DNA of 64,000 bases from an uncultured Bacteroidales bacterium (GTDB lineage Bacteria; Bacteroidota; Bacteroidia; Bacteroidales; B18-G4). The translations under genes were made by a program, and so were the position numbers. Under the pieces are notes generated by a model, which ran no database searches, was not told where the DNA came from, and worked only from the letters and a program-made list of their open reading frames with translations. Shown piece after piece: positions 31,601-52,608 of this stretch. Each line of letters opens with the position of its first letter. The first letter of the stretch is position 1. The stretch covers positions 181,550 to 245,549 of the forward strand of contig CAVWAP010000004.1 in the NCBI GenBank assembly GCA_963753055.1, in the 5' to 3' direction.

Positions 31601-34600
31601 ATTATATTATGATGATGGAGAAGCTGAAGAATTGGTAGTCTGGGCTGACCCACTCAATGAAAATGCGGTTAAGTTTACTCCACTGGGCTACCCCATGAAC
31701 CTTATTGGAGGACGCCTGAATGTTGGAGATGGCAGCTTCCCAGCCGGCAATTGGCTTAATTCTGAGTTTGCCCTGCTGATTTATGATGACGATGGTAATG
31801 ATGGCATGCCTGGAACACTAATGGATTCAATGACCGTTGAAGTACAAAACTTTGAATGGATCGAATTCAAGGGAGACACCATAACATTTTTGGATGGCGA
31901 TTTTTATATCTCAATGATGCAACTTAACCCTTCTCCAAATGCTCCTCCTCTTGGAGTGGACTTTACAAGCCCTGTTGCATACCGAAGCTATTCAAGGTTG
32001 CAGGGAGATGATTGGATCTTATCACCATACCAGGATTTCATGATCAGGGCATATGTGACAGGACCGGCAACTGATGATATGCCTGTTGAATTGGGTGTTA
32101 AGAAAGTTCCTGAAAAACTTCCTCCGGGTGCTGAAGGAAGATTGTACTTTACAAAAAATGGATTAGCACCAATTATATTTCCTGGCCTGGAAAGAGAGAC
32201 TGAATTTAATCTTCTGAATAACACTCATTCTTCAAACCGGGACCTTGTTTCTTACGACCTGATGAGGGTTTCTGATTTTAATCCTGACCTTGGACCACAA
32301 ACAGGAGTGTTCACGCTTATAGGCGATGATATAAATGCAATTTATTATAATGATACTGCTTTTGGAGCTTTGCCTATGGGCTGGTTTGCCTATGCTGTCC
32401 AGGCAAATTATACCAATGGAGATACTTCAGAATGGATATATTCCAACATCGTTGGACACCTTAAGGAGGTTAGAGTTGACTTCCAGGTCACCCTTACAAC
32501 AGGGGAGCTGCCGGATGAAGTTGAAATAACCATGGCCGGTGAAGACTATCCATATTCTGTGTATTCAGGAATCACGGATACCAACGGATTACTTTTTTTC
32601 AACGATGTTTGGAAAGGAACATATACCATTCATGCTTACAAAGTAGGATATGAACTATATGAGATCTCCAATGAAAATATTCAGTCAGATATGTCTTATT
32701 CCCTCACCCTTGGTGAAAAGCGATATCCTGCTCTTAATTTCTGGGTTGATCCCTTAACCTCAATGGCCTATTGGGATTATCCAATTGTTACAGCAATCAG
32801 GGAAGATTTTGACGGTTCGCAGTTCCTTCCATCAGGATGGCAAATAGTAAGTCAGGGTGTGGGTTGGTTTCTGACAACTGATGGCAGCAGCCCGAACTGG
32901 ACAGTGCCTGCATGGGATTCCCGGTACGCCTGTGCCAATGATGATAAAGCAGGATCTGCAAACAATGGATGTTGTGATTACCTTGTTACTCCGGCTGTAG
33001 ATCTGCGTGAATCAGAGGAGTTCAGCCTGATGTTTGACAGTTACTATGATGGTGCATACGGGGAAATCGCTAATGTGGAATTCAGTAATGATGGAGGAAA
33101 TACCTGGTATATCCTGATGGCCCTTACGCCAAACCCCGGGGGCTGGGAGCAAATTGAGATTGATCTTTCTTCATTATCAGGACCTAGTGGTGCCTATCCT
33201 GTCTGGTTTGCCTTTCATGCCGATGATGATGGTGAATGGGCTTCCGGCTGGGCAGTAGATAACATTGTAATCGCTAATGGCCTTGCTGGCCCCATCGATT
33301 TTTACATGTTCCTCGATGGAGCTTTTGTTAATAGTACGGAACAGACTTATTACCAGTATCCGTTTCTGACTTATGGAATCACATATGAGGCCAGCGTTGC
33401 TGCACACTATACTTCAGGATTATCTGAAAAGGTCTATTACCCCTTTACATCCACCTACCTCACACCTCCCAGGAACCTCAGAGGAGAAACCTTTGACGAT
33501 GCGGTGCAGCTCTGGTGGCAACCTCCTCTTGAACCGGATGGAGTTTTCGTTCTTCTGACAGAAAAGACCAGGACTGTCCATATCAATCCGCATGATGATT
33601 ATAGTCCGAAAGTCAGAACCATAAAGATCATGGATAACTCCATAGGGTCACGTGACCAATGGGATGTGCACTATTCCTATCCAACAATCTATACAGATGG
33701 GGAAACCGGAGCTGAAACAGATGGTGATTACCTGTATACAACACAATGGAACGCCGGTAATGGTACCTTCTTTAAGTACGATCTGGATGGAACTTACCTG
33801 GAAACCTTTGTTATTCCGGACTGCCGTGACCTGAGAGATCTTGCCTATGACCCCGATAATAGCATGATGTTTGGAAGCAACGCCTCCGACACGGTATGGA
33901 AAATGGATTTTATTGATCAGGTGCTTGTTGAAACATTCTTTGCTCCAACAGAAGTCAGAGCAATTGCATTTGACAGCGATGAGATTGGTTTCTGGGCTAA
34001 TAATTGGGATACAGATATCACATTATTTGATATGACAGGTTCATTGATCAGCAGTTTCCCGATCGGTACCTGGGGAAGCTATTACGGCTTTGCATACGAT
34101 AATTGGACTGATGGAGGTCCATACCTCTGGGGTTTTAGCCAGGACGGTAGCGGGGCAATCCTGGTTCAGATAGATCTGAATACGGGCACTGAAGTTACTG
34201 TGCTGGATGTGTTGCCCATCCTGGGTGGATCAGAAATAGCTGGTGGGTTATTTACAATGTGCAGCATGATATATAATAATGTTGTCACAATTGGTGGGGT
34301 GCTTCAGAACGAGATGCTGTTTGGTCTTGAATTGGGACCATGCCAGGGGCCACCTCTTCATTGGCATGTCCCTGAGAACCTGATTGGTTATAAGGTGTAC
34401 CGTGATCTTGATTGGGTAGGTTCAGTCCCATATTATGGAGAGGATACATCAACCTATTATGATACAGGCCTGGATCCATATACATATGAATATGATGTGT
34501 CAGCGCTATATACCTTGAGTACATATGGCTTCCCTGGTGAAGTGGGAGAATCGATGATGGAAGGACCATTCTATATCCAGGTCCAATATGGTTATCCTTT

Positions 34601-35594
34601 GCCATTTGAGGAAACATGGAGCTTAGGCAGCTTTGAATTAAACGAGTGGGATCATAGTGGTAATTGGATCATTAATAATCAATCAGGTAATCCACCTCCG
34701 TCGACTGAATTCTCATGGGAACCAATACTTACTAATTATAAATCATCATTGACAAGCCATCCGATCGATGGAGTAAACCTGCCTGCCCCATGGGTTGATG
34801 GTTGTATCTGGCTGGACTTTGACATCAAACTGATCGACCGGAATATGACCGGCCAGGAAAAACTGAGGGTGGAAATAGGAAATGACTTTGGCTGGTTTGA
34901 GGTGATGTCCTTTGATAATGCACAGGGGGGCTTTGATTGGCAACATAGCCATGTTGATATCAGTAGTATGGCGTTTGGAGAAATCTTCAGGGTCAGGTTT
35001 GTTGGTGAGGGAACAAACTCAATTGATATTCAATCATGGTTGATCGACAATATCCTGATCTATCGTGATTGTTCTCCTCCCAGGAACCTGAACCTGGAGA
35101 TCCAGAACTGCATCGATGTGTTATTGACCTGGGATGCTCCGTATGTTTGCGACAGCGCACGAAAGCTTGTGGAATATGATATATATGTCAATCTTGAATA
35201 TTATATGTCTACAACTGATACATTTTATATTTATACTGCAGGCCAGAATGGTACATATCGGTTCCAGCTATTTAGTGTATACGAAGACTGTGTTTCTGAT
35301 TCTTCAGTAAAAGGAACAATCGACGTGGTTTGCGTAGGAATAAATACCCCACAGGTAGATGATTGGGTGAATGTTTACCCCGTTCCAACATCGGAAACTC
35401 TTTATATTCAGGCAAAAGAAGAAATTAGGTATGTATCCCTTTTGAATAATATGGGTACAATAGTGTATTCTAATTATGGAAATGAGTCTAAAGAGCTGAA
35501 AGTCAATACAAAGACATTCATACCTGGATTTTATTTCCTAAAAATTGAAACTAAAACAAAAATATACAGTAAAAAGATTCTGGTCATTAGATAG
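28659..35594 (+). CDS. giant T9SS cargo protein, paralog 1 (2311 aa), multi-lectin/Ig surface protein of unknown function
   Basis: Uninterrupted ORF whose GTG start overlaps the ALDH stop (GTGA). Signal peptide 'ILFALAALCCLFLAGIVQAQ'. Modules in order: Cys-containing jelly-roll head; MAM/ConA-like head ('FIIDFEDGEMP...HVDDFEIWY'); three CarboxypepD_reg-like sandwiches ('VEGYVFNGNGIPIPDANVGLEG'); Ig/FN3-like units ('GEYCYTVQSSYDEGFSIPAGPEC'); a GEVED domain; choice-of-anchor-J/cleaved-adhesin-like domains ('EDFDGSQFLPSGWQ...WAVDNIVIAN'); one ~230-aa propeller-like module; CTD 35367-35591. Confidence 0.9.
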   Translation: MNYKPVILFALAALCCLFLAGIVQAQQPDGDGRAIGDDCTEPIQVNLTQDLPYLEYGQTTCGRGNSYDTTCLGSYDDGEDIIYQLNVSTEFEIQITMTPNDAWAAMGLFDDCPDVGNCMESVTYANVGYVIQAMTINTILSPGTYYLMMDSWPAPACFDFDLAINQVVPVDAYPFIIDFEDGEMPVEFVMLPGGDAGIRTDADAALNSDYGLLFEGNTQANWGPTPVNVNEAFDSTKVSHFGTINIEVVPTGEPGTLKMQFDLQQGYSYTPNYCWFRVMVDSIVIADENGFTYYQPFTHNDPFSSRTWDLGAYQSAPFTITLQSSCKYYENYYEQGDIVHVDDFEIWYELPPGKVEGYVFNGNGIPIPDANVGLEGSVTTSSGIDGFYLLEHVPFGMQEIYAWKQGYNMVSASVNVPSGGVANQDFILTQPTMIISPTLHYYTLNPFELYSTQTGIQNSGDGPLEWSAVINYPSGDTLDWLSLEWYEGVVPPDGGLENIPTHFNAANTTSGEVYTADIVFTSNPDVGTLTIPCEMVVLGDPLIPPAGLQVSLLNDVTGEVRVSWQASNRDFQYFIVKRDGALLASTINQFVIDYLPGYGEYCYTVQSSYDEGFSIPAGPECILWPNPQVFINPNHVEEWVWIDQQAVVSTNIINLGIGTLTYSFPDFTKDDKVLEYCPGSGGCDEFIQNVSIGNINNTTGCKNYSNFTNLSATVQRGVAYPISISVGNPVAEDILGIWVDWDQDEVWAQDEMIQTAGDPFSGFTAEIIPPDGSPAGYTRMRIRLQWGGVLDPCGTTAYGEVEDYSLYVLGGFITDVQPSSGIIAEGSSQVIMITYDASAYPEGDFSRQLLCETNDPSSPVSVIYNTMHVIVPAELVGNVKDGNTGVYLPGVSVTAGNWQAETDEHGHYSMYLDEGIYDITFQKLGYQTVIVEDTFVQQGEITPLDIQMFEEPYPVSFVLATVNEEDTECLVEWSLPYVPLELYYDDGEAEELVVWADPLNENAVKFTPLGYPMNLIGGRLNVGDGSFPAGNWLNSEFALLIYDDDGNDGMPGTLMDSMTVEVQNFEWIEFKGDTITFLDGDFYISMMQLNPSPNAPPLGVDFTSPVAYRSYSRLQGDDWILSPYQDFMIRAYVTGPATDDMPVELGVKKVPEKLPPGAEGRLYFTKNGLAPIIFPGLERETEFNLLNNTHSSNRDLVSYDLMRVSDFNPDLGPQTGVFTLIGDDINAIYYNDTAFGALPMGWFAYAVQANYTNGDTSEWIYSNIVGHLKEVRVDFQVTLTTGELPDEVEITMAGEDYPYSVYSGITDTNGLLFFNDVWKGTYTIHAYKVGYELYEISNENIQSDMSYSLTLGEKRYPALNFWVDPLTSMAYWDYPIVTAIREDFDGSQFLPSGWQIVSQGVGWFLTTDGSSPNWTVPAWDSRYACANDDKAGSANNGCCDYLVTPAVDLRESEEFSLMFDSYYDGAYGEIANVEFSNDGGNTWYILMALTPNPGGWEQIEIDLSSLSGPSGAYPVWFAFHADDDGEWASGWAVDNIVIANGLAGPIDFYMFLDGAFVNSTEQTYYQYPFLTYGITYEASVAAHYTSGLSEKVYYPFTSTYLTPPRNLRGETFDDAVQLWWQPPLEPDGVFVLLTEKTRTVHINPHDDYSPKVRTIKIMDNSIGSRDQWDVHYSYPTIYTDGETGAETDGDYLYTTQWNAGNGTFFKYDLDGTYLETFVIPDCRDLRDLAYDPDNSMMFGSNASDTVWKMDFIDQVLVETFFAPTEVRAIAFDSDEIGFWANNWDTDITLFDMTGSLISSFPIGTWGSYYGFAYDNWTDGGPYLWGFSQDGSGAILVQIDLNTGTEVTVLDVLPILGGSEIAGGLFTMCSMIYNNVVTIGGVLQNEMLFGLELGPCQGPPLHWHVPENLIGYKVYRDLDWVGSVPYYGEDTSTYYDTGLDPYTYEYDVSALYTLSTYGFPGEVGESMMEGPFYIQVQYGYPLPFEETWSLGSFELNEWDHSGNWIINNQSGNPPPSTEFSWEPILTNYKSSLTSHPIDGVNLPAPWVDGCIWLDFDIKLIDRNMTGQEKLRVEIGNDFGWFEVMSFDNAQGGFDWQHSHVDISSMAFGEIFRVRFVGEGTNSIDIQSWLIDNILIYRDCSPPRNLNLEIQNCIDVLLTWDAPYVCDSARKLVEYDIYVNLEYYMSTTDTFYIYTAGQNGTYRFQLFSVYEDCVSDSSVKGTIDVVCVGINTPQVDDWVNVYPVPTSETLYIQAKEEIRYVSLLNNMGTIVYSNYGNESKELKVNTKTFIPGFYFLKIETKTKIYSKKILVIR
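30681..31082 (+). other. GEVED domain in paralog 1 (slot 2)
   Basis: 'EYCPGSGGCDEFIQNVSIGNINNTTGC...TRMRIRLQWGGVLDPCGTTAYGEVEDYSLYV' ends with the literal GEVED signature. Confidence 0.75.
33651..34338 (+). other. ~230-aa uncharacterised propeller-like module (copy in paralog 1)
   Basis: 'RDQWDVHYSYPT..GETGAETDGDYLYTTQWNAGNGTFFKYDLDGTYL...LRDLAYDPDN..FGSNASDTVWKMDF...RAIAFDSDEIGFWANNWDTDITLFD...YGFAYDNWTDGGPYLWGFSQDGSG...IAGGLFT...GGVLQNEMLFGLEL'. Homologous copies are at 37635-38333, 41793-42486, 45871-46569, 50038-50730 and 58354-59046. Confidence 0.6.
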
Positions 35595-35969: not shown

Positions 35970-38900
35970 ATGAAACGATTTATTACTAAGCTTACGCTGT
36001 TGATGATTCCTTTCCTACTATCCTCAGCTATGCTCTTTGCACAAATGCAGTTGACTGGTCCTGGAGCTAAAGAATACTCCAATAACCAGGATGTAACTCG
36101 TATTTTGTATGAGCAAATGGACATTGGGGCCAGTGGCTGGGCTTCTCAGGATTTTGAAGCAGCTTACGACATCTACGACTGTCAGGGTGCAGACGACTTT
36201 ACTGTCCCTGCAGGAACTATCTGGCAAGTCGATGAGGTCACTGTTATTGGTTCAGGAGCCCCTGGACCATTTAATGTCGCCAACGTATATTTCTATCAGG
36301 ATGCAGGCGGATTGCCTGCTGCAGCACCTTACTTATCCTTTATGGGCTTAACAGCCGTGGATAATGCAGGTGCAATGACCATTGCTATTCCTGGTGGTGC
36401 TGTACTTACTGGCGGAGATTATTGGGTATCAGTACAGGACGCTGCTCCTTTTGGAGTCAACGGACAATGGTTCTGGACCAAGAATCTTACGCAGATTAAT
36501 AACATGGCCTATTGGCAAAACCCAGCAAATGGATTCGGTACAGGTGCTACAACCTGGACAGATGTCCTGACCGCTTTTGGTGAGGCAGCCGACTTCACGT
36601 TTTCACTTGTCGGTGAATCCTATGTAGAAATTGGTAACGGTACTGGCTATGGATCTTATCCAGCCTATTATAGTACCTGGTGCAATTATTGGGAAAATTG
36701 CCATACTCAAACATTATATCTGGCATCCGAATTGGGCGGACCAATGGATATCACAGAGTTGGGCTGGAAGTTCGAGAGACTTGCTACTCCCAACAACTGG
36801 CTATTGAATGTCCAGATTAACATTGTGGAAACCAGTGTTTCAGCTTTTACAGCAGGTTCTTATTTTGATATGACCGGGGCAACCCAGGTATATTCCAATG
36901 CAAACCTTATCCCTGCAACTGCCCTTGGCTGGAATAAAATTGACATTAATGATTTCGTCTATTCAGGGGTTAATAACCTCGTTATCGAAATCATTTGGGG
37001 TGACAACGGATATTATGAGTCTCCTTATTACAGGACCTATAAAACTAATGGTTCTGTCAATAGGACACTCCTTGGATATGCCGATTCAGAGACACCTCCA
37101 AACTATGATGCAGCAACTACCTGGTATGATGACCTCCGCGTATTTTTCAAACCATCTCTTGCTCCAGGCAACCTGGAAGGTTACGTGTTTAATGGAGATG
37201 GCCTTACAATTGCCGGAGCATCAGTAGGTATTGAAGGAGTAGGCGTGACTACTACCGGCCCTGCAGGTTTTTATGAGCTTCTTGATGTACCAACTGGTGA
37301 ATATGAAGCTTATGCCTGGAAAGACGGGTACAATGTCGTTACTGAAGATGTATTGATTATTTCAGGACAAACGACTATGCAAGACTTCATCCTGACTCAA
37401 CCGAACTGGTCTTTTAATCCATTAATACATGACTATACACTGAACCCGAATGAGTTCTTTTCAACTACACAGGGTATTCTGAATACTGGTGATGGTCCGG
37501 TTGATTGGTCAGCTGAAATTGTCTACCCACCTACAGATGTAATCATCGGTGATCCTGAGCCTCGTGCAACGATGCCGGATCCTCAAACAGATTACAGTCC
37601 TACAGTTACTACAGTACAGATAAATAATCCAATGAGGGATACCTGGGACCAGCAGTTTGGCTTCCTGACACAGGATAATAGTGGTGAAGCAGGTGCTGAA
37701 ACTGATGGTGCTTACTTCTATACTTCTAAATGGAATGCAGGCAGCGGTGTCTTCTTCAAGTATGAATTAGACGGTAACTTCCTGGGTTCATTTAATGTAT
37801 CCGGTGGAGCCATGGATCTCAGAGACATGGCTTACGTTGACTCAGAAGGCTTGTTCTACGGATCCAATGCCGGTACTACAGTATGGGCGATGGACTTCGA
37901 CGCTGGTGTAACTGATCATACTGTTCCTGCCGCAACAGCATGTAGAGCAATTGCATATAACGATGATGCCGATGGTTTCTACGGAAACAACTGGTCAACA
38001 GATATTACCCTTTTTGACCGTGAAACCGGAGCATTCATCAGCAGCTTCTCTACTGGTGGCTTAGCCAGTATGTACGGTATGGCCTATGACAACTGGTCAG
38101 ATGGTGGTCCATATGTATGGGCATTCGACCAGGGTGGCTCAGGTGGTGTATTCTACCAGTTTGATGCTACTACAGGTACACAGACAGGATTTACTTTTGA
38201 TGTTGTAGCAGCAACTGGCCAATCACAAATTGCCGGTGGTGCTTTTACACATCCAGGACTCGTTCCGGGATTTGTTACCATTGGTGGTATCCTGCAAAAC
38301 CTGTATTACTTTGGATTTGAGCTCGCTGAAGGCGGTGCTTCAATCGGCAGCTGGCTGACACTTGATTACTACAACGGAACTGTTCCTCCAAATGGAGGCA
38401 TTGATAATATCCCTACTCACTTCAACGCTGCCGGAACAGCAGCAGGTGAAGTTTATACTGCGGAGATCATATTTACCAGCGATCCTGATATTGGTACAGT
38501 GACTATTCCTTGTACCATGAGTATCCTTGGTAATGCACTTGTACCTCCGGAAAATCTTGAGGTTACACTTACTAATGATATTATCGGACTGGTTACCCTC
38601 ACATGGGATTGGTTTGGTGATGCATTCCAGTATTTCGTAGTTAAGAGAGATGGTATGATCATTGGCTCAACAACCCTGACCACTTTCACAGACTACTTGC
38701 CAGATTATGGCGAATACTGTTATACTGTTCAGGCACAATATGATGAAGGATTAACTTCACCAGCAGGCCCTGAATGTGTATTGTGGCCAAATCCAACGAT
38801 TTATATAGACCCAATGTTCCTTGAAGCATGGGTTTGGGTAGATCATACAACCCAGGTCTATACAACTATATATAATACGGGAATAGGAACATTAGCCTAT

Positions 38901-41900
38901 GAATTCCCGGATTACCTTAAAGATGCCTTTGATTGTGAGCATGAGATTGTAATGACTGACGACTTCGGTGATGGCTGGAATGGTGGATTCTTCGACCTCT
39001 ACCTGGATGGCGTTCTCACCATGTCAGGCGTAACGCTTGCCAGTGGTTCTGGCCCAGAGTCTGTATACTTTACAGCTACCGTAGGCCAGGAGATCACCAC
39101 TACCTGGACAGACGGAGGATGGCCTTACGAATGTGAATATCATGTATTCGACGGAGAAGGTACCGAGATTGGTTCAGATGGTGTCGGTGGGGCTTATCCT
39201 AACGGTATCCTGGCAGGAGAATGTTATGCTTTCTGTCCGGTACCAAGCTATATCGTAAATGTTGATCCAGCTTCAGGCGTTCTTGCTGAAGGTGGCAATC
39301 AACTCATCACAATTACTTATGATGCTACAGGCTTTGGTCCTGGAGATTATCCGGAAGACTTACAGGTTAATTCTAATGACCCGGATAACCCAGAAGTATA
39401 TATTGCCAATATGATGCACGTTTATACACCTGCTCAGTTTGCTGGTACTGTAACTGATGGCAGCACCGCACAACCTATTGTTGGTGTTACCGTTACAGCT
39501 GGACCATTCCAGGCAGTGACTGATGGCAGCGGTGAATACTCATTGTTTGTTGATGAAACAGCATATGATGTGTATTTCAACGTCCTTGGATACCAGGGAG
39601 TTATGGTTGCAGATACATTTGCTCAGGCAGGTGTCATTACACCAATTGATATTGTAATGTTTGAAGTACCATACCCTGTGCCATGGGTTACAGCTACAGT
39701 TAATGATGATGATACAGAATGTCTGGTTGAATGGGCATTGCCTGTTGGACCTTACGAGATCATCTATGACGACGGTAGCGCAGAAGAACTCGTTGTATGG
39801 GCTACTGGACTTAACCAGAACGCTGTTAAGTTTACTCCTTTAGGATATCCTGCTACTATTACTGGTGGTCGCCTGTTTATTGGTGACGGTAATTTCCCGG
39901 CAGCTAACTGGCTTGGATCAGACTTTGCCATGTTAGTATATGACGATGACGGCGCTAATGGCATGCCAGGCACCGTACTTGATTCAGTTCAGGTAGTCGT
40001 TAATAACTACGGGTGGTTAGAATTCTCATTAACTGGTATAGCTACCATTACTGATGGTGACTTCTACCTGTCAATGATGCAATTCTATCCTGCACCAAAT
40101 ACTGCTCCTTTAGGCGTTGACTTTGACACTCCAACATATTACAGGAGTTATTCTAAGATGGTTGGACTTGAGTGGATGAGCTCTGTATACCAGGATTTCA
40201 TGATCCGTGCATACGTTGATGGTCCAACTACAAGCGATGAAGAAGTAACTGAAGGTGCGACAATTCATCCACCGAAGCTTCCTGCTGATGCAGAAGGTAC
40301 TTACTTCTTCACACAGAACAGCTTAAGGCCATCAGGTATTCCAGGTGTTGAAAAAACTGGTATATACAAAAACCTTGCTGAAGCTAGCCGCGATGTAGTA
40401 TCTTACGATGTTGCCAGGATATCTGATTTTGATCCTGACATGGGACCAGAAACAGGTACAATGACAACAATCACAAATACTACTGAGCTTTCATATAATG
40501 ACATCGCTTGGGGCGGCCTGGCAGAAGGCTGGTATGCTTATGCTGTGAAAGCTTTTTATACCAATGGTGATGAATCAGAATGGGTATACTCAAATATAGT
40601 CGGACACCTATTGGATGTTGAAATAACATTCGAAGTGAGCTTGTCTACTGGCGCCGTTCCGGTTGATGTTGAAATTAGTATGGAAGGCGAGACTTATCCA
40701 AATGCAACTTATTTCGGTCTTACCGATACCAACGGAATACTAATATTCCCTGAGGTATGGAAAGGACAGTATGATATCAGTGCTTACAAGTTAGGTTTTG
40801 ACACGTACTATATTATGGATTACATGGCTATCGCAGATGATTATATCATCATTATCCTTGGAGAGAAGCGTTATCCGCCACGTAACCTTTGGGTAGATCC
40901 TTTGACTTCATGGGCATATTGGGAATGGCCAATTATAGATGCCTTATATGAAGACTTTGAAGGAACAGACTGGCCACCAACAGGCTGGCAGTCACTCAGT
41001 GCTGGCGAAGGCTGGTACCTGTCAACAGGCTATAGCGGAGCATGGGTAGTACCCACATGGGACTCACAATTTGCATTGTCTAATGACGATGGAGCCCCGT
41101 CAGGCAACAACGGAAGTGCTGACTATCTTGTCACACCAGGCTTAGACCTTCGTGAATCTGAAGACTTCAATATGATGTTCAATAGCTTCTATGACGGAGC
41201 CTACGGACAGTTAGCTACTGTTGAGTATTCATACGATGCTGGAGCTACCTGGGAAGTACTTTATGCAGTACCTCCAACACCAGGCGCCTTTGCAGATATT
41301 GAAATAGATCTTTCAGACTATTGCGGCGCAGGCTCAGCATATCCAATCTGGTTTGCTTTCCATAGCGATGACATTGGAGCATGGGCCTCAGGATGGGCCA
41401 TTGATAATGTTGAAATTGCCAATGGAGAAGCCAACCCGATCGATTTCTACGTCTTCCTGGATGGTGCCTTTGTATCTTCATCCGGTATCACCGAGTACCA
41501 GTATATGTGGCTGACTTACGGTGTTACTTATGAAGCCAGTGTAGCAGCACGCTATACTTCAGGCCTTTCAGAGAAGATTTACTATACCTTTGTATCTGAA
41601 TACCTTGTACCTCCACGTAACCTGGATGGCGAGACCTTCGACGATGCCGTGCACATTTGGTGGGAGCCACCACTGGAGCCGGAAGCCATGTTCGAACTGG
41701 TCAATGTTGTACCACGTACAGAGCGTCCAAACCAGTATTCAGACTACAGTCCAACTGTACGCACAGTTAAGGTAACTGGCAACAGCTCAACCCGTGATAT
41801 CTGGGATGTACAGTATAACTTCCCAACATTCTTCAACGGAGGAGAGGCCGGAACCGAATCAGACGGTGAATATATCTATACCACACAGTGGAACGCCGGT

Positions 41901-44369
41901 AACGGTACAATGTATCAGTATGCTACTGATGGTACCTATATTGGCTCCTTTGTAGTAAGTGGTGCAATGGATATAAGAGACCTTGCGTATAATGAGAACA
42001 CAGGCTATATGTACGGTTCCAACGCAGGCAACACTTGCTGGGAGATGGACTTCGCAGGAGGCACAACAATAAGTTCAATAGCAGCCCCAACAGCATGTAG
42101 GGCGATAGCTTATGACGACGGTGCCAACGGTTTCTGGGCAAACAACTGGGATACCCCGATTACGTTGTTTGACTATTCAGGAGCCACGTTGAATACCATC
42201 AACGTAGGTGCCTTTGGTAGCTTGTACGGATTGGCCTATGATCAATGGACAGACGGTGGACCATACCTGTGGGGCTTTAGCCAGGCAGGTGCAGGTGCCG
42301 AGCTGGTACAGTATGACATGAATACAGGAGCAGAGATTTTCAACCTGAACGTACTTCCACTTGTTGGAGGCACACAGATAGCAGGTGGACTTTATACTGC
42401 TTGTAACCTGGTCGTTCCGGGAACCGCCCTTATCGGTGGTAACCTGCAGAACGAGAAGGTCTTTGGACTGGAGTTAGCTGAATGTTCTGGCTTGCCAGGC
42501 CCCGGCGGCTTCGTAGTACCGGAGAACCTGTTAGGTTACAATGTATATCGTGATATGGAAAATATCGCTTACGTACCTTACGCTGGCGAAGACACAGCCA
42601 ACTATTATGACCTGGGTCTTGAGCCATTGACATACCAGTATGATGTAACAGCCCTTTACGACCTTGGTCGTTATGGCTTCCCGGGCGACACCGGCGAATC
42701 CATGTATGAAGGACCGTTCATTATCCAGGTACTTTATGGTTATCCATTACCATTCCAGGAGTACTGGGTGAGTGGAGGCTTTGATGTTAACCAGTGGACA
42801 CCAGGAGATAACTGGACAGTCAATGGCCAGATAGGTAATCCTGAGCCGGCAACTGAGTTCACCTGGGATCCAGTCCTGACAAACTATCGTTCAGCCCTGA
42901 GCAGCTTCCCATTGGATGGCGTAGGACTGATTGGAGATCCTTATATTGATGGTTGTATCTGGTTTGAATATGATGTTAAACTGGATGACCGTAATATGAC
43001 AGGAGCAGAATCACTGACCATTGAAGTAGGTAATGAAAACGGCTGGCATACGCTTGCCACTTACGACAATGCTGATGGTAGCTTCGATTGGACACATAGC
43101 ATCTTTGATATTACTGAGTGGTCGTTCGGACAGATCTTCCGTGTAAGATTTACTGCTGAAGGCGCCAGCTCTGCCGATATCCTGTCATGGTTTATCGACA
43201 ATATCGAAGTATACCTTGTATGTATGCCAGTAGAAGATCTGATGGTAGACGTACAGGCAGGCAGCGATGTTGAAGTACATCTAAGCTGGACATCACCATA
43301 CGCTTGTACAGCAGGCGGACCTGGTGGTGGCGAGTGGATCTTCTGGGATGATGGTACCAACACAGGCGGCATAGGACTCACAGGCGGTGGTGTATTTAGT
43401 GTAGCATCACACTGGGATCCGGATATGCTGACAGCTTATGACGGCATGGCCATCACCAAGATCAGGTTCATACCTTATGAAAATGCAGCGAATACTGTGA
43501 TCAACATGAAGGTTTGGGAAGGTACTAATGCTAGTACATTGCTGATTGATCAGGCTGTCACTTCATACATTGCAGGTGAATGGAACGAGATCGAACTGGC
43601 TTATCCTGTTTACATTGATGTAAGCAAGGAACTGTGGTTCGGTTATACCTGTGATTCACCTGATGGCGAGAACCCGGCAGGTTATGACGCTGGTCCTGCA
43701 ATAGCAGGTTATGGCGACATGATCACGTTGGATGGAGCCACCTGGGATCCGATCTCCAGCTTTGGTGCACAGTTTGACATTAACTGGAACCTGCAGGCAT
43801 GGGTAACCGTACCTACAGAGACTTCATCAGCACCAATGCCAATGGTTGACATCACGATTTATAACACACCAGACGCGGCTATTAATCAAGTTGCAGGCGA
43901 TAACGTAATTCCTGCACCTGTATATGAATCTCGCGAACTGCAAGGTTATAATATCTATAAGGACGGTGATTTCCTTGACTTCACAGCCGACACATTCTAT
44001 GTAGATTACATTCCTTACAGCAGCACGTTCCCAATGGATCTTTCGTACGACGTAACTGCTGTATATGAGGATTGTGAATCAGCACCGGAGAATGTACTGG
44101 TCGAAGTTACAGGCATTGAGGATATTCTTGCAGAGAATAACATTGCAGTCTATCCAAACCCTGCCCGTGACGTGTTGAATATCAAGTCAACTGATAATAT
44201 CACACATATCACGATGATGAACAACGTCGGACAGGTTGTCCTCAACAAGAAAGTTGCTGATGACAATGTTCTTGAGTTGAATGTAGAAAATTATGAACCA
44301 GGACTCTACATGATCAAGATCGAAACTGCTGACAACCTCGTTATCGAGAAAGTGTTGATAACCAGATAA
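35970..44369 (+). CDS. giant T9SS cargo protein, paralog 2 (2799 aa)
   Basis: Uninterrupted ORF with signal peptide 'LLMIPFLLSSAMLFAQ'. It has two head jelly-rolls unlike those of the other paralogs. After them comes the shared scaffold, carrying propeller-like modules at 37635-38333 and 41793-42486 and a 'DDFGDGWNGG' module at 38931-39236. It also has an extra C-terminal jelly-roll at 43323-43805 and a CTD at 44142-44366 ('IAVYPNPARDVLNIKS...PGLYMIKIETADNLVIEKVLITR'). Confidence 0.9.
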   Translation: MKRFITKLTLLMIPFLLSSAMLFAQMQLTGPGAKEYSNNQDVTRILYEQMDIGASGWASQDFEAAYDIYDCQGADDFTVPAGTIWQVDEVTVIGSGAPGPFNVANVYFYQDAGGLPAAAPYLSFMGLTAVDNAGAMTIAIPGGAVLTGGDYWVSVQDAAPFGVNGQWFWTKNLTQINNMAYWQNPANGFGTGATTWTDVLTAFGEAADFTFSLVGESYVEIGNGTGYGSYPAYYSTWCNYWENCHTQTLYLASELGGPMDITELGWKFERLATPNNWLLNVQINIVETSVSAFTAGSYFDMTGATQVYSNANLIPATALGWNKIDINDFVYSGVNNLVIEIIWGDNGYYESPYYRTYKTNGSVNRTLLGYADSETPPNYDAATTWYDDLRVFFKPSLAPGNLEGYVFNGDGLTIAGASVGIEGVGVTTTGPAGFYELLDVPTGEYEAYAWKDGYNVVTEDVLIISGQTTMQDFILTQPNWSFNPLIHDYTLNPNEFFSTTQGILNTGDGPVDWSAEIVYPPTDVIIGDPEPRATMPDPQTDYSPTVTTVQINNPMRDTWDQQFGFLTQDNSGEAGAETDGAYFYTSKWNAGSGVFFKYELDGNFLGSFNVSGGAMDLRDMAYVDSEGLFYGSNAGTTVWAMDFDAGVTDHTVPAATACRAIAYNDDADGFYGNNWSTDITLFDRETGAFISSFSTGGLASMYGMAYDNWSDGGPYVWAFDQGGSGGVFYQFDATTGTQTGFTFDVVAATGQSQIAGGAFTHPGLVPGFVTIGGILQNLYYFGFELAEGGASIGSWLTLDYYNGTVPPNGGIDNIPTHFNAAGTAAGEVYTAEIIFTSDPDIGTVTIPCTMSILGNALVPPENLEVTLTNDIIGLVTLTWDWFGDAFQYFVVKRDGMIIGSTTLTTFTDYLPDYGEYCYTVQAQYDEGLTSPAGPECVLWPNPTIYIDPMFLEAWVWVDHTTQVYTTIYNTGIGTLAYEFPDYLKDAFDCEHEIVMTDDFGDGWNGGFFDLYLDGVLTMSGVTLASGSGPESVYFTATVGQEITTTWTDGGWPYECEYHVFDGEGTEIGSDGVGGAYPNGILAGECYAFCPVPSYIVNVDPASGVLAEGGNQLITITYDATGFGPGDYPEDLQVNSNDPDNPEVYIANMMHVYTPAQFAGTVTDGSTAQPIVGVTVTAGPFQAVTDGSGEYSLFVDETAYDVYFNVLGYQGVMVADTFAQAGVITPIDIVMFEVPYPVPWVTATVNDDDTECLVEWALPVGPYEIIYDDGSAEELVVWATGLNQNAVKFTPLGYPATITGGRLFIGDGNFPAANWLGSDFAMLVYDDDGANGMPGTVLDSVQVVVNNYGWLEFSLTGIATITDGDFYLSMMQFYPAPNTAPLGVDFDTPTYYRSYSKMVGLEWMSSVYQDFMIRAYVDGPTTSDEEVTEGATIHPPKLPADAEGTYFFTQNSLRPSGIPGVEKTGIYKNLAEASRDVVSYDVARISDFDPDMGPETGTMTTITNTTELSYNDIAWGGLAEGWYAYAVKAFYTNGDESEWVYSNIVGHLLDVEITFEVSLSTGAVPVDVEISMEGETYPNATYFGLTDTNGILIFPEVWKGQYDISAYKLGFDTYYIMDYMAIADDYIIIILGEKRYPPRNLWVDPLTSWAYWEWPIIDALYEDFEGTDWPPTGWQSLSAGEGWYLSTGYSGAWVVPTWDSQFALSNDDGAPSGNNGSADYLVTPGLDLRESEDFNMMFNSFYDGAYGQLATVEYSYDAGATWEVLYAVPPTPGAFADIEIDLSDYCGAGSAYPIWFAFHSDDIGAWASGWAIDNVEIANGEANPIDFYVFLDGAFVSSSGITEYQYMWLTYGVTYEASVAARYTSGLSEKIYYTFVSEYLVPPRNLDGETFDDAVHIWWEPPLEPEAMFELVNVVPRTERPNQYSDYSPTVRTVKVTGNSSTRDIWDVQYNFPTFFNGGEAGTESDGEYIYTTQWNAGNGTMYQYATDGTYIGSFVVSGAMDIRDLAYNENTGYMYGSNAGNTCWEMDFAGGTTISSIAAPTACRAIAYDDGANGFWANNWDTPITLFDYSGATLNTINVGAFGSLYGLAYDQWTDGGPYLWGFSQAGAGAELVQYDMNTGAEIFNLNVLPLVGGTQIAGGLYTACNLVVPGTALIGGNLQNEKVFGLELAECSGLPGPGGFVVPENLLGYNVYRDMENIAYVPYAGEDTANYYDLGLEPLTYQYDVTALYDLGRYGFPGDTGESMYEGPFIIQVLYGYPLPFQEYWVSGGFDVNQWTPGDNWTVNGQIGNPEPATEFTWDPVLTNYRSALSSFPLDGVGLIGDPYIDGCIWFEYDVKLDDRNMTGAESLTIEVGNENGWHTLATYDNADGSFDWTHSIFDITEWSFGQIFRVRFTAEGASSADILSWFIDNIEVYLVCMPVEDLMVDVQAGSDVEVHLSWTSPYACTAGGPGGGEWIFWDDGTNTGGIGLTGGGVFSVASHWDPDMLTAYDGMAITKIRFIPYENAANTVINMKVWEGTNASTLLIDQAVTSYIAGEWNEIELAYPVYIDVSKELWFGYTCDSPDGENPAGYDAGPAIAGYGDMITLDGATWDPISSFGAQFDINWNLQAWVTVPTETSSAPMPMVDITIYNTPDAAINQVAGDNVIPAPVYESRELQGYNIYKDGDFLDFTADTFYVDYIPYSSTFPMDLSYDVTAVYEDCESAPENVLVEVTGIEDILAENNIAVYPNPARDVLNIKSTDNITHITMMNNVGQVVLNKKVADDNVLELNVENYEPGLYMIKIETADNLVIEKVLITR
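37635..38333 (+). other. propeller-like module, paralog 2 copy 1 (slot 1)
   Basis: 'RDTWDQQFGF...GEAGAETDGAYFYTSKWNAGSGVFFKYELDGNFL...LRDMAYVDSEGLFYGSNAGTTVWAMDF...RAIAYNDDADGFYGNNWSTDITLFD...YGMAYDNWSDGGPYVWAFDQGGSG...IAGGAFT...GGILQNLYYFGFEL'. Confidence 0.6.
38931..39236 (+). other. Cys-bounded ~100-aa 'DDFGDGWNGG' module (slot 2 of paralogs 2 and 3)
   Basis: 'DCEHEIVMTDDFGDGWNGGFFDLYLDG...WTDGGWPYECEYHVFDGEG...GECYAFC'. The paralog 3 copy is at 47167-47472. I cannot assign it to a named family from memory. Confidence 0.5.
41793..42486 (+). other. propeller-like module, paralog 2 copy 2
   Basis: 'RDIWDVQYNFPT..GEAGTESDGEYIYTTQWNAGNGTMYQYATDGTYI...IRDLAYNENTGYMYGSNAGNTCWEMDF...RAIAYDDGANGFWANNWDTPITLFD...YGLAYDQWTDGGPYLWGFSQAGAG...IAGGLYT...GGNLQNEKVFGLEL'. 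Confidence 0.6.
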
Positions 44370-44653: not shown

Positions 44654-45631
44654 ATGAAAAGTGTTACTAGAATCTGTATGGCATTAATTGTGTTGATGTT
44701 ATCAACATCAATGGTGTTTGCACAGAGCAATAACCTTGGGAAAAATGCAATTTCTCAAGAAGAATTATCCTTAATGAAGGAGCATGAGGGTTTGACGGTA
44801 CATCCTAATTATGCGGGACCATCTGACCAGCTGGGACCTGCAATTACCAGCTTCCCTTTCACCACTGGTTTTGAAAGTGGCATACCTCCGGAATTAGATG
44901 CACAACCCGGAACTTATGCTGATGTAAGGCAGGATGATAATGCTGCCTACACTGACACTTACGGGATGCTTTTTGAAGGATACAGCTCAACAGGTTGGGG
45001 CGCAACGCCTACTACCTACTCGGCAGCATTTGATCCTTCAAAATCCACTCACTTTGGAACAGTTTATATTAATGTGGTTCCAGACGGCACTTCCGGAACT
45101 TTGAAAATGACCTACTGGATGAGGCAGGGCTATTCATTTAGCACCAATTACAACTGGTTCAGGGTACTTGTCGAAGGCAACCTCACCGGTGATGAAGGTG
45201 GTGGCCCGGGATATTACCAGGCTGTTAGCCCCGTTAGCTACATGGGTCAATGGGTTGAATACACTTTCGACCTGAGCGCCTATGATGGAGCGCCATTTCA
45301 AATTATACTGCAATCATCCTGTAAATATTATGAACTCTATTATCAACAGGGTGATGTTGTTCATATCGATGATTTCAAGATCTGGTACATGGTGCCTCCG
45401 GGCGATGTGGAAGGATATGTATTTAATGGTGATGGTCTTAGCATTGCCGGAGCAACCATTGGTGTTGAGGGTGGTGCCATGACAACTTCAAGTCCATCAG
45501 GCTATTATTTCTTGCCTACTGTTGATGGTGGCAACCAGCCAATGTATGCTATCAAAGGATGGATACAACACGATTACGGATATTGTATATGTCACACCAT
45601 CTGGGATTGGTACAAAAAGATTGGGTACTGA
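44654..45631 (+). pseudogene. paralog 3 fragment 1/6 (signal peptide, MAM-like head, start of CarboxypepD_reg)
   Basis: 325-aa ORF. Homology ends at 'PMYAIKG'. The expected continuation 'DGYNTITDIVYVTPSGIGT' is in another frame. Confidence 0.75.
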
Positions 45632-46005
45632 CTCAGCCTAACTGGACTTTTAATCCTTTAATACATGATTATACGCTGAACCCGAATGAGTTCTTTTCAA
45701 CTACACAGGGTATTCAGAATACTGGTGATGGTCCGGTGAATTGGACTTCAACCATAGTTTATCCTCCTACCGATGTAGCTATTGGAGCTCCGGAGCCAAG
45801 GAAAACAATGCCGGATCCACAAACGGATTACAGTCCTATGGTTACTACAGTTACTGTAACCAACCCCATGAGGGATACCTGGGACCAGCAGTTTGGCTTC
45901 GCAACACAGGATAATAGTGGTGAAGCAGGTGCTGAAACTGATGGTGCTTACTTCTATACTTCTAAATGGAATGCAGGCAGCGGGCCATCTTCAAGTATGA
46001 ATTAG
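45559..46005 (+). pseudogene. paralog 3 fragment 2/6 (Ig-like half, start of propeller-like module 1)
   Basis: 148-aa ORF. Homologous from 'VLTQPNWTFNPLIHDYTLNPNEFF' to 'YFYTSKWNAGSG', then an out-of-frame patch 'PSSSMN*'. Confidence 0.75.
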
Positions 46006-46047
46006 ACGGTAACTATCCTGGGTTCATTTAATGTATCCGGTGGTGCC

Positions 46048-49045: not shown

Positions 49046-49367
49046 CATATATGAGATTCCAAATGAGAACATACAGACCGACAGGAGCTTTGTCATTATC
49101 CTGGGCGAGAAGCGTTATCCGCCACGCAACCTGTGGGTAGATCCGCTGACCTCCTGGGCATACTGGGAATGGCCTATCGTTGAAGCCCTGGCGGAAGATT
49201 TTGAAGGTACGCAATGGCCTCCTCCATACTGGCAATCACTTACTGATGGCGAAGGCTGGTTCCTGACAACAGCAGGCAGCAGCGCAAGCTGGACGATACC
49301 TACATGGGATTCACAATATGTAGTATCTAATGATGATGCGAATTCAGGCAACAACGGATGCTGCTGA
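48990..49367 (+). pseudogene. paralog 3 fragment 5/6 (start of choice-of-anchor-J-like domain)
   Basis: 125-aa ORF. Homologous from 'YDIYEIPNENIQTDRSFVIILGEKRYP' to 'SNDDANSGNNG'. Confidence 0.7.
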
Positions 49368-52300: not shown

Positions 52301-52608
52301 TATATGAGGATTGTGAATCTGCACCGGAAGGTGTCATGGTTGAAGTTACAGGCATCGAGGATATTCTTGCAGAAAATAACATTGCAGTCTATCCAAACCC
52401 TGCCCGTGACGTGCTGAATATCAAGTCAACTGATAATATCACACATATCACGATGATGAACAACGTCGGACAGGTTGTCCTCAACAAGAAAGTTGCTGAT
52501 GACAATGTTCTTGAGTTGAATGTAGAAAATTATGAACCAGGACTCTACATGATCAAGATCGAAACTGCTGACAACCTCGTTATCGAGAAAGTGTTGATAA
52601 CAAGATAA
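49330..52608 (+). pseudogene. paralog 3 fragment 6/6 (adhesin-like domains, propeller-like module 2, C-terminal jelly-roll, CTD)
   Basis: 1092-aa ORF, homologous from 'ADYLVTPALDLRESEDFF' onward. Contains the scrambled patch 'PVMIFVRCSGWSDVEV' where the paralogs read 'PVTDLLSDVQAGSDVEV' and 'PVEDLMVDVQAGSDVEV'. Confidence 0.8.

What the first reader, a model, noticed from the sequence alone, without database searches (positions are those of the whole stretch)
37531..38348. Domain-swap slot 1: one loop of a conserved Ig-like unit is empty, holds a ~270-aa propeller-like module, or holds a GEVED domain
The flanks are conserved in all four paralogs. Upstream is '..TGIQN(T/S)GDGP(V/L).W(S/T)A.I.YP'. 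Downstream is 'WL(S/T)(L/C)(D/E)(Y/W/F)Y.G(T/V)VPP.GG(I/L).NIPT(H/N)F'.

Between these flanks:
- Paralog 1 has only about 6 residues ('SGDTLD', about 30078-30095).
- Paralogs 2 and 3 carry the ~270-aa module (37531-38348; 45767-46584).
- Paralog 4 carries a ~147-aa GEVED domain (54064-54505).

Clean replacement of whole folded units at one position of a host domain implies cassette exchange by recombination rather than gradual divergence.
Basis: partly seen in the sequence, partly recalled or inferred. Interest (0 to 1): 0.7.

Follow-up and report, generated by a model that had tools for sequence, protein, structure and literature searches.

The report
Swappable head domains in an Ig-fold loop
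Four giant secreted surface proteins of an uncultured sediment Bacteroidales bacterium share one small Ig-like stalk domain. One hairpin loop of that domain is either empty or carries a whole extra folded domain, and related genomes put at least ten unrelated domains at the same spot.

Summary
All four tandem paralogs (P1-P4) contain the same ~110-aa unit.

- **Host unit.** An AlphaFold2 model of the uninterrupted P1 unit (pLDDT 91.5) matches single ASH/PapD-like Ig domains over nearly its full length (TM 0.72-0.80). The slot is therefore the c-c' hairpin inside one domain, not a linear domain boundary.
- **Inserts in the window.** P1 has 6 aa. P2 and P3 have 274 aa: a disordered linker, a beta-propeller and a Gly-rich tail. 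P4 has 148 aa with a GEVED domain (PF20009, E=3e-21). P3 is a frameshifted pseudogene.
- **Survey.** 26 slots in 19 loci from other assemblies and 87 slots in a 1.84-billion-protein library hold at least ten unrelated insert families or a short loop at this hairpin.
- **Mobility.** Three insert families also sit in a second, equivalent slot. P4's GEVED is 82% identical to one whose host is only 49% identical.
- **Recombination.** P2, P3 and P4 are nucleotide mosaics (62-100% identity per 200 nt).

Domain replacement rather than gradual divergence is supported. Exchange is evolutionary, and no junction repeats or recombinase were found.

The closest known design is the "split domain" that projects ligand-binding domains in RTX adhesins. 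This is a T9SS/Bacteroidales variant with a different host fold.

The parts
28659..35594 (+). Paralog 1 (P1). Intact 2311-aa gene with a signal peptide and a T9SS C-terminal sorting domain.
   Evidence: ORF list. Por_Secre_tail PF18962 at 38.5 bits, CarboxypepD_reg, GEVED at aa 735-806.
29931..30077 (+). P1 host unit, left half (strands a, a', b, c of the ASH/PapD-like Ig domain). The first ~8 residues, DFILTQPT, are the inter-domain linker.
   Evidence: tblastn anchors. AF2 strands 10-12, 16-20, 25-34, 40-47.
30078..30095 (+). P1 slot 1 in the empty state: the 6-aa c-c' hairpin SGDTLD.
   Evidence: The loop spans residues 48-56 of the model, and its pLDDT block of 84 is the lowest internal value.
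30096..30275 (+). P1 host unit, right half (strands c' to g).
   Evidence: AF2 strands 57-59, 63-66, 71-80, 89-99, 104-113. Foldseek alignments of 111-125 columns span both halves.
35970..44369 (+). Paralog 2 (P2). Intact 2799-aa gene.
37383..37529 (+). P2 host left half.
   Evidence: AF2 strands are identical to those of P1.
37530..38351 (+). P2 slot 1 insert, 274 aa. It consists of a disordered linker (about 37530-37634), a beta-propeller 'propA' (about 37635-38327) and a Gly-rich tail EGGASIGS (38328-38351).
   Evidence: AF2 pLDDT is below 50 for residues 52-85 and above 90 in the propeller. Foldseek gives WD40-type propellers at E~4e-9. A profile of the window's five intact propA copies (alignment A2) against PDB sequences hits 2ymu at E=4e-11. 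No Pfam hit.
38352..38531 (+). P2 host right half.
   Evidence: AF2 strands equal P1 strands plus 268 residues.
44654..52608 (+). Paralog 3 (P3). Pseudogene broken into at least 6 ORFs by frameshifts.
   Evidence: The 5-A run that causes the frameshift at 45614 is also present in loose ends of two independent runs.
45619..45765 (+). P3 host left half.
45766..46587 (+). P3 slot 1 insert. This is a propA copy 91-100% identical to P2 in nucleotides, interrupted by a frameshift pair (45983, 46015) and a stop codon.
46588..46767 (+). P3 host right half.
52962..60930 (+). Paralog 4 (P4). One frameshift near 53790, otherwise intact.
53917..54063 (+). P4 host left half.
54064..54507 (+). P4 slot 1 insert, 148 aa. 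It is a GEVED domain (Pfam match at about 54268-54483) followed by a GGAGN tail.
   Evidence: PF20009 at E=3e-21.
54508..54687 (+). P4 host right half.

Best explanation
**What it is.** Slot 1 is the c-c' beta-hairpin of a small ASH/PapD-like (HYDIN-type) Ig domain. [quoted passage not shown]

**How it works.** The hairpin acts as a socket.
- The chain leaves the Ig domain after strand c.
- It runs through a 10-35-aa flexible linker.
- It folds into a complete globular head domain whose N and C termini lie side by side.
- It returns through a Gly-rich tail to strand c' and finishes the Ig fold.

The stalk domain thereby holds the head out sideways from the fibre axis.

**Which heads occupy it.**
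- In the window: none (P1), a WD40-like beta-propeller (P2, P3), or GEVED (P4).
- In relatives: two further propeller-like families, three jelly-roll-like families, a Cys-clamped GDGWNG domain and two ThuA/flavodoxin-like domains.

**How it arose.** The heads were gained, lost and replaced repeatedly as whole cassettes. The routes were recombination among tandem paralogs (gene conversion of blocks containing host plus head) and occasional illegitimate insertion into equivalent loops of other stalk domains. Selection kept only junctions that fall in the hairpin.

**Status of each step.**
- Shown: the fold, the nested topology, the set of alternative inserts, the incongruence between insert and host, and the paralog mosaicism.
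- Inferred: that the heads are ligand-binding (adhesive) modules, and the molecular route of exchange.
For: **Nested topology**
- P1 unit model: pLDDT 91.5, pTM 0.81, one domain.
- Foldseek matches for that model include 2e6j (HYDIN PapD-like), 3qbt (OCRL1 ASH) and 6fvi (CEP192 ASH). TMq is 0.69-0.75 for these and up to 0.80 among the listed hits, over 111-126 of 118 residues.
- The P2 model keeps the same nine host strands, with the right half shifted by 268 residues. A high-confidence propeller lies between the halves.

**Alternative inserts at the same loop**
- 26 slots were read in 19 loci from other MAGs and metagenomes.
- 87 left-right anchor pairs were found among 50%-identity cluster representatives.
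- The gaps fall into a short-loop class of up to 22 aa (16 pairs) and nine insert families.
- A ThuA-like insert in locus L011 makes a tenth family.

**Cassette mobility**
- GEVED, GDGW and ThuA-like domains occur in slot 1 in some genes and slot 2 in others.
- P4's GEVED is 82% identical to L007's GEVED, while their hosts are 49% identical.
- P4's GEVED is 73% identical, and L007's 77%, to a slot-2 GEVED.
- There are 34 Fitch changes on the tree of 84 hosts, against a minimum of 8.
- propA also exists free-standing (signal peptide, module, T9SS tail) and nested in more distant Ig hosts.

**Recombination**
- P2, P3 and P4 are 62-100% identical per 200 nt.
- A P2/P3 tract at 37440-38790 has mostly 70-100% third-position identity. 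Its flanks have 33-63%.

**Secreted surface protein**
- All paralogs carry Por_Secre_tail and stalk-type domains.
- Contigs from a sediment metatranscriptome run cover the P2 slot region.

**Design precedent**
- RTX-adhesin split domains project ligand-binding domains in the same way (PMC12077191, PMC10865825).
Against: - No ligand or binding activity is known for any of these heads.
- GEVED was defined as a stalk-type partner domain in CshA rather than a binding head (PMC10952558).
- ThuA/flavodoxin-like inserts could be enzymes.
The inference rests on homology to the contiguous P1 unit and on identical strand patterns.
- The host tree rests on about 109 aa and is noisy, so 34 changes is an upper bound.
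- Higher insert identity than host identity could partly reflect stronger constraint on the insert.
- No junction repeats, recombinase or population variants lacking the insert were seen.
Confidence: 0.72

Rival explanations
1. Active, programmed cassette switching. The tandem array, including the pseudogene P3, serves as a donor pool. Frequent gene conversion changes which head an expressed paralog displays, as in antigenic-variation systems such as pilE/pilS or vlsE.
For: - There is strong mosaicism among P2, P3 and P4, including stretches of over 400 nt at 99.5-100% identity next to 62-66% stretches.
- P3 is a frameshifted copy that still carries a complete head.
- A P2/P3 high-identity tract spans slot 1.
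Against: - Every paralog has its own signal peptide and T9SS tail, so these are not silent partial cassettes.
- The P1 (empty/GEVED) and P2 (propeller/GDGW) states and their order are conserved in a different MAG whose hosts are only 72-77% identical (L001).
- Four sediment runs show no contig that joins across the insert or carries another head at this locus.
- There is no recombinase or invertase nearby.
Confidence: 0.1
2. The inserts are catalytic modules rather than binding heads. On this view the proteins are surface-anchored multi-enzyme scaffolds, and the sockets arrange enzymes (propeller hydrolases or lyases, ThuA/GATase-like domains).
For: - ThuA/flavodoxin-like inserts occur.
- Beta-propellers are common enzyme folds.
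- Neighbouring T9SS cargo genes include BNR/sortilin-like and pectate-lyase-like proteins.
Against: - No insert matches any catalytic Pfam family.
- GEVED and the jelly-roll or GDGW-type domains are typical of adhesin or CBM-like modules.
- The closest architectural precedent projects binding domains (PMC12077191).
Confidence: 0.15
3. An ordinary linear domain boundary. On this view the two anchors are separate small domains or linkers, and different domains simply sit between them.
For: Pfam does not recognise the slot-1 host as one domain. The best hit is BACON_2 at E~0.1.
Against: - The contiguous P1 unit folds as one compact domain (pTM 0.81).
- It aligns end to end with single ASH/PapD-like domains.
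- Splicing out the slot-2 insert restores a PF22544 Ig match above threshold across the junction.
Confidence: 0.02
4. Assembly artefact. On this view, chimeric assembly of repeated paralogs created the apparent swaps.
For: - The paralogs share near-identical kilobase stretches that could mislead assemblers.
- P3 and P4 carry frameshifts.
Against: - The same host-plus-insert junctions recur in independent assemblies from other studies. Examples are L001_b and L002_a for the propeller and L007_a for GEVED.
- They recur in 87 database proteins.
- Independent runs contain contigs covering both P2 junctions.
Confidence: 0.02

Closest known systems
'Split domains' of RTX (T1SS) fibrillar adhesins that project ligand-binding domains. 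Examples are Aeromonas hydrophila AhLap, Vibrio cholerae FrhA and Marinomonas MpIBP (PMC12077191, PMC10865825, bioRxiv 10.1101/2025.09.30.679566).
   Same: - An Ig-like stalk or extender domain is interrupted by a complete globular domain.
- The termini of that domain are adjacent, so the head buds sideways from the fibre.
- Several such sockets occur per protein.
- Different head types (CBM, vWFA, PBD) occupy the sockets.
   Different: - The proteins here end in a T9SS C-terminal sorting domain. They lack the RTX beta-roll and T1SS signal.
- The phylum is Bacteroidota, not Proteobacteria.
- The host fold is ASH/PapD-like, not BIg.
- The split is mid-domain at the c-c' hairpin (four strands, then five). 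In RTX adhesins it falls after the first strand or before the last two.
- The head families are different and mostly unannotated.
- One orthologous socket is shown here to hold at least ten alternative heads, with heads moving between sockets.
GEVED domain (PF20009) of CshA-type fibrillar adhesins (PMC10952558).
   Same: The P4 slot-1 insert and the P1 slot-2 insert match PF20009 far above threshold. Both carry the motif (GEAEDY and GEVEDY).
   Different: In CshA-like adhesins GEVED follows the NR2 binding domain linearly and is classed as a stalk domain. Here it is nested inside an Ig hairpin and is interchangeable with unrelated domains.
ASH / PapD-like / MSP Ig domains (PF22544 HYDIN_VesB_CFA65-like_Ig; PDB 2e6j, 3qbt, 6fvi).
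   Same: The host unit has this fold (TM 0.72-0.80). The slot-2 host passes the Pfam threshold once its insert is removed.
   Different: The matched PDB ASH/PapD-like domains align contiguously with the uninterrupted P1 unit. I did not check whether large c-c' hairpin insertions occur in other ASH domains. The slot-1 host is too divergent for the Pfam model.
Nested domains in Gram-positive pilus tip adhesins (for example RrgA) and CBM insertions in 'evolved' phage Dit proteins.
   Same: Adhesive or carbohydrate-binding domains are inserted in loops of Ig-like or galectin-like scaffold domains.
   Different: The scaffolds and secretion routes differ. To my knowledge no series of many alternative heads at one orthologous loop has been described for them.

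Membership tests
ASH/PapD-like Ig domain (HYDIN_VesB_CFA65-like_Ig, PF22544) | Single 7-9-stranded s-type Ig beta-sandwich of about 100-120 aa | tested here: met
   AF2 model of the P1 unit has pLDDT 91.5 and pTM 0.81. Foldseek against PDB gives 2e6j TMq 0.75 / TMt 0.79, 3qbt 0.74 and 6fvi 0.69, all at probability 1.0.
ASH/PapD-like Ig domain (HYDIN_VesB_CFA65-like_Ig, PF22544) | Pfam HMM score above the gathering threshold | tested here: not met
   The slot-1 host, contiguous or spliced, gets only BACON_2 at E=0.06-0.16 and Ig_CFAP65_4th at E=0.13. The slot-2 host with its insert spliced out does pass, at 30.3 bits against a cutoff of 25.5.
GEVED domain (PF20009) | Pfam HMM above the gathering threshold, and the GEVED motif near the C-terminus | tested here: met
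   The P4 insert scores 76.4 bits against a cutoff of 24.4, E=3e-21, with the motif GEAEDY.
WD40-type beta-propeller | Toroidal beta-propeller fold built of 4-stranded blades | tested here: met
   AF2 gives about 22 strands at pLDDT above 90. Foldseek gives WDR5, Gbeta and TLE1 at E~4e-9 and probability 1.0, with TM only 0.35-0.45 for the two-domain query.
WD40-type beta-propeller | Sequence membership in the WD40 repeat family (Pfam WD40) | tested here: not met
   No Pfam hit at E<=10. There is only a partial profile match to the PDB WD40 protein 2ymu, E=4e-11 over about 100 aa.
RTX adhesin split-domain / ligand-binding-domain system | An Ig-like stalk domain interrupted by a complete projecting domain | tested here: met
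RTX adhesin split-domain / ligand-binding-domain system | C-terminal RTX beta-roll plus T1SS signal, N-terminal retention module and BIg extenders | tested here: not met
   Pfam finds Por_Secre_tail (T9SS) at the C-terminus. It finds no HemolysinCabind or BIg domains.
RTX adhesin split-domain / ligand-binding-domain system | The projected domains bind ligands | not testable with these tools
   This needs binding assays.
T9SS cargo protein | C-terminal sorting domain (PF18962) and an N-terminal signal peptide | tested here: met
   PF18962 scores 38.5-48.7 bits against a cutoff of 27 in P1, P2 and P4. Hydrophobic N-terminal leaders ending in AQ were seen by eye only.

The most novel reading that the evidence does not exclude
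The c-c' hairpin of this ASH-type Ig domain, together with equivalent loops of neighbouring Ig and FN3-like stalk domains, is a general plug-and-play socket system of Bacteroidota T9SS surface proteins.

On this reading, a shared pool of at least ten self-contained head cassettes moves between sockets, paralogs and genomes by a dedicated or strongly favoured transfer route. Each cassette carries its own linker and Gly-rich tail, and some have a Cys pair at the base. Rare random recombination followed by selection would not be the main route.

This would be a natural combinatorial display platform.
Probability: 0.2. Interest if true: 0.8.

Novelty: new variant of a known kind. Interest (0 to 1): 0.58.

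Why it matters
- **Reach of the design.** It would extend the recently described "split domain projects a ligand-binding head" design from proteobacterial RTX adhesins to T9SS proteins of Bacteroidota. The host fold and split point are different, which suggests convergent use of Ig hairpins as display sockets.
- **A practical rule.** The rule is to look for Ig halves separated by 100-300 aa. It picks out many unannotated candidate binding domains in giant environmental surface proteins that Pfam leaves blank.
- **Protein engineering.** One natural loop tolerating at least ten unrelated folds of 100-290 aa is a useful template for domain-insertion engineering.
- **Evolution.** It gives a clean case for studying how whole domains are exchanged inside another domain.

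Tried and rejected
- **Pfam on the slot-1 host alone or spliced.** Only sub-threshold BACON_2 and CFAP65 Ig hits appeared, so the fold had to come from structure prediction.
- **Pfam on the other insert types (propB, JR, GDGW, ThuA-like).** Nothing was significant.
- **Foldseek with the two-domain P2 model.** It returns only propellers and cannot show the split host. I modelled the contiguous P1 unit instead.
- **Model coordinates.** They are not exposed, so I could not measure contacts between the host halves.
- **Direct repeats or microhomology at the insert borders.** The longest shared word is 6-7 nt, which equals the shuffled expectation. A site-specific or repeat-mediated mechanism was rejected for lack of evidence.
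- **Recombinase, DGR or mobile-element genes in the window.** None were found.
- **Population variants.** No contig in four runs skips the insert. The apparent joints are cross-mapping P3-like contigs.
- **P3 frameshifts inside the insert.** Confirmation in other runs failed because no contig covers the site.
- **FN3 assignment of the domains hosting the C-terminal propeller and the JR2 domain.** Pfam did not confirm it. It rests on the sequence pattern only.
- **PDB sequence search with GEVED.** No relative was found.
Full report
**Setting**

The window is a chromosomal stretch of an uncultured Bacteroidales bacterium. It carries housekeeping genes (an AIR synthase-related (AIRS) protein, uvrC, serS, rplU, ksgA, an RND efflux pump) and several T9SS cargo genes.

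Four giant paralogous genes lie head to tail on the + strand from 28.6 kb to 60.9 kb:

| Paralog | Coordinates | State |
|---|---|---|
| P1 | 28659-35594 | intact, 2311 aa |
| P2 | 35970-44369 | intact, 2799 aa |
| P3 | 44654-52608 | broken into at least 6 ORFs |
| P4 | 52962-60930 | one frameshift near 53790 |

All begin with a hydrophobic leader. All end in a Por_Secre_tail T9SS sorting domain, and all contain CarboxypepD_reg and Ig-type stalk domains.

The closest genomic relatives are Bacteroidales MAGs. The sequence occurs in sediment metagenomes. Contigs from a sediment metatranscriptome run also hold it.

**Checking the observation**

Translation shows the quoted anchors in all four genes.

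tblastn with the 49-aa left anchor and the 60-aa right anchor finds each once per paralog, at E=1e-16 to 1e-37. The gaps between them are as follows:
- 6 aa in P1 (30078-30095)
- 274 aa in P2 (37530-38351)
- 274 aa in P3 (45766-46587)
- 148 aa in P4 (54064-54507)

Pairwise blastn puts the homology breakpoints at the same places.

The P4 insert is a GEVED domain (PF20009, E=3e-21).

The 270-aa module has no Pfam match. It is nevertheless a beta-propeller:
- A 44-sequence alignment gave an AF2 model with mean pLDDT 86.8. Blocks within the module score above 90, and only the 34-residue entry linker is disordered.
- Foldseek returns WD40-type propellers at E~4e-9.
- A profile of the window's five intact propA copies weakly matches the WD40 protein 2ymu.

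One correction is needed. The P3 copy carries a -1/+1 frameshift pair and an internal stop, and P3 as a whole is a pseudogene.

**Is the slot inside a domain?**

I took the P1 unit, where the anchors are contiguous, and modelled it with a 19-row alignment.
- The model has pLDDT 91.5 and pTM 0.81, and forms one compact nine-strand sandwich.
- Foldseek against the PDB aligns 111-126 of its 118 residues to single ASH/PapD-like Ig domains. These include the HYDIN PapD-like domain 2e6j, OCRL1 ASH 3qbt and CEP192 ASH 6fvi. TMq reaches 0.80 among the listed hits, at probability 1.0.

The slot is therefore the hairpin between strand c (residues 40-47) and strand c' (residues 57-59).

In the P2 model the same strands appear, with the right half shifted by exactly 268 residues. 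The inference rests on 61-69% identity to the contiguous P1 unit.

A linear domain boundary is excluded.

**Survey of the same anchors elsewhere**

A profile of the insert-trimmed region (alignment A1) found only nine proteins in the word-indexed database. Three of them already showed a fourth kind of insert.

Scans of species-representative genomes and of metagenomes gave 19 loci. I read 26 slots in them, grouping the inserts by similarity of sequence and length:

| State | Approx. length | Count |
|---|---|---|
| Empty | 6-15 aa | 3 |
| Same propeller (propA) | 267-274 aa | 5 |
| GEVED | 148-149 aa | 2 |
| Cys-bracketed 'JR' domain | 193-206 aa | 9 |
| GDGWNG domain | 111 aa | 2 |
| Second propeller (propB), weak sub-threshold NHL hit | 276-285 aa | 3, plus two slots cut by contig ends |
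| Third repeat family (propC) | 279-283 aa | 2 |
| ThuA-like domain | 252 aa | 1 |

These counts include the window's four slots.

The exhaustive HMMER search of 1.84 billion cluster representatives gave 189 proteins at E<=1e-30. Many alignments break at profile position ~124, which is the slot.

Local searches with half-domain HMMs found 87 left-right pairs:
- 16 with gaps of up to 22 aa
- 22 JR
- 22 propC
- 11 propA
- 2 propB
- 5 GDGW
- 5 GEVED
- 2 JR2
- 1 JR3
- 1 flavodoxin-like

Every insert ends in a Gly-rich tail directly before the Trp of WL(S/T)(L/M)D. The JR and GDGW inserts have one Cys near each end, which may form a clamp.

**Evidence for cassette replacement**

- *Unrelated inserts.* The insert families are mutually unrelated by BLASTP at E<=1e-5 over at least 50 aligned residues. 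The exception is propA and propB, which fall in one linked cluster. Divergence in place is therefore excluded.
- *Incongruence with the host tree.* L002_a (propeller) groups with P1 and L001_a (empty). P4 (GEVED) groups with the propeller-bearing P2 and L001_b. On 84 confident hosts, 34 Fitch changes are needed, against a minimum of 8 and about 53 when states are shuffled. The tree is short and noisy, so 34 is an upper bound.
- *Insert identity against host identity.* P4's GEVED is 82% identical to L007_a's GEVED, although their host units are 49% identical.
- *A second slot shares the same pool.* An equivalent slot two domains downstream (slot 2) sits in an Ig domain that passes PF22544 once its insert is spliced out. 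GEVED, GDGW and ThuA-like cassettes occur in slot 1 in some genes and slot 2 in others. Slot-1 and slot-2 copies of GEVED are 73-77% identical and those of the ThuA-like domain are 63% identical. GDGW copies are only 33-41% identical between slots. The two host domains share no alignable sequence.
- *Independence of propA.* propA also exists as a free-standing secreted protein. It is also nested at the same hairpin of more distant Ig domains.
- *Mosaic paralogs.* P2, P3 and P4 are 62-100% identical per 200 nt. P2 matches P4 at 99.5-100% across 41910-42309, while P3 matches P4 at 99% and P2 at about 85% across 43710-44109. A P2/P3 tract at about 37440-38790, spanning host, propeller and the next domain, has mostly 70-100% third-position identity. 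Its flanks have 33-63%.

- The recent conversion tract carries the host together with the insert, not the insert alone.
- Movement between slot 1 and slot 2 cannot use anchor homology.
- There are no junction repeats beyond chance and no recombinase or DGR nearby.
- The P1 and P2 states and their order are conserved in MAG L001.
- No contig from four sediment runs skips the insert.

The clean borders are best explained by selection for junctions that preserve both folds. There is no sign of a site-specific system. I rate the interpretation partly supported.

**Comparison with known systems**

The design matches the "split domains" of RTX adhesins. There, Ig-like extenders are interrupted by carbohydrate-, peptide- or vWFA-type ligand-binding domains that bud sideways. 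The split is now used as a criterion to find such domains (PMC12077191, PMC10865825, bioRxiv 10.1101/2025.09.30.679566).

The present proteins are not members of that family:
- They have a T9SS tail instead of an RTX beta-roll and T1SS signal.
- The host is ASH/PapD-like rather than BIg.
- The split is at the central c-c' hairpin rather than after the first strand or before the last two.

No paper in the held library links split domains to T9SS proteins.

GEVED was defined from the CshA adhesin as a linear stalk-type partner (PMC10952558). Here it is nested.

Monzon et al. noted that adhesive domains in Bacteroidetes fibrillar adhesins often sit mid-protein (PMC8286594). That is compatible with this design.

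**Verdict**

This is a real, well-delimited nested-domain socket, a new variant of a known architectural kind. It has unusually rich comparative evidence that whole heads are exchanged at one orthologous loop. The function of the heads (binding) and the route of exchange remain inferred.

Noticed in passing
window 30660-31091 (P1), 38916-39248 (P2), 47152-47484 (P3), 55072-55797 (P4): A second socket ('slot 2') lies two domains downstream in another ASH/HYDIN-like Ig domain. It holds GEVED in P1, a 111-aa GDGWNG domain in P2 and P3, and a 242-aa unannotated domain in P4. In other loci it is empty, or holds GEVED or a ThuA-like domain. Splicing out the P1 insert restores a PF22544 match across the junction.
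   Followed up: yes
window 33597-34337 (P1), 41742-42479 (P2), 49987-50724 (P3), 58303-59040 (P4): Every paralog has a second copy of the same propeller family, about 53% identical to the slot-1 copy. It appears to be nested between 'PPRNL..WW.PP' and 'PENL.GY.VYRD', which are the two parts of an FN3-like unit. Even the entry linker (..PR....DYSP) resembles the slot-1 linker. Pfam did not confirm the FN3 assignment.
   Followed up: partly
window 35151-35165 (P1) versus 43308-43937 (P2), 51547-52176 (P3), 59869-60498 (P4): A fourth socket lies in the last FN3-like unit before the T9SS tail. There are 5 aa (DSARK) in P1 and a 210-aa jelly-roll-like 'JR2' domain in P2-P4. The same JR2 family occupies slot 1 in two database proteins (P0074, P0140).
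   Followed up: partly
window 24667-27083: The upstream smaller T9SS gene is split by an apparent frameshift near 26050. It shows the same design: a left Ig half (..NIENVGAAELEYDLAIVY), a JR2-like domain, a right Ig half (WLSADPMMGAVDP..VTVPVTMNV) and then Por_Secre_tail.
   Followed up: partly
window 44654-52608 and about 53790: P3 is a pseudogene with at least five indels relative to P2 in the compared stretch alone, mostly outside long homopolymers. P4 has a single frameshift in its CarboxypepD_reg domain. The 5-A run that causes the P3 frameshift at 45614 recurs in loose ends of contigs from two independent runs, including a metatranscriptome run.
   Followed up: partly
window 39300-44369 versus the P3 and P4 equivalents: P2, P3 and P4 form a patchwork of 62-100% nucleotide identity per 200 nt, and the closest pair changes along the gene. 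This is typical of repeated gene conversion between tandem paralogs. The N-terminal ~400 aa of P2 is unrelated to that of P3 and P4.
   Followed up: partly
L004 (three tandem paralogs), L006, L003, L001: Tandem arrays of 2-3 such giant paralogs, 7-9 kb apart, recur in other Bacteroidales MAGs. Each array has a different combination of slot-1 and slot-2 heads.
   Followed up: partly
window 3291-6596, 13576-16116, 16102-17793 (-): Further secreted or T9SS cargo genes lie nearby. Two are Sortilin/BNR-repeat proteins and one is a pectate-lyase-like protein with Por_Secre_tail.
   Followed up: no
L005 (CAYJQB010000011.1): A contig carrying a typical member of this Bacteroidales family is deposited in a bin labelled Candidatus Woesearchaeota. 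It is probably a binning contaminant.
   Followed up: no
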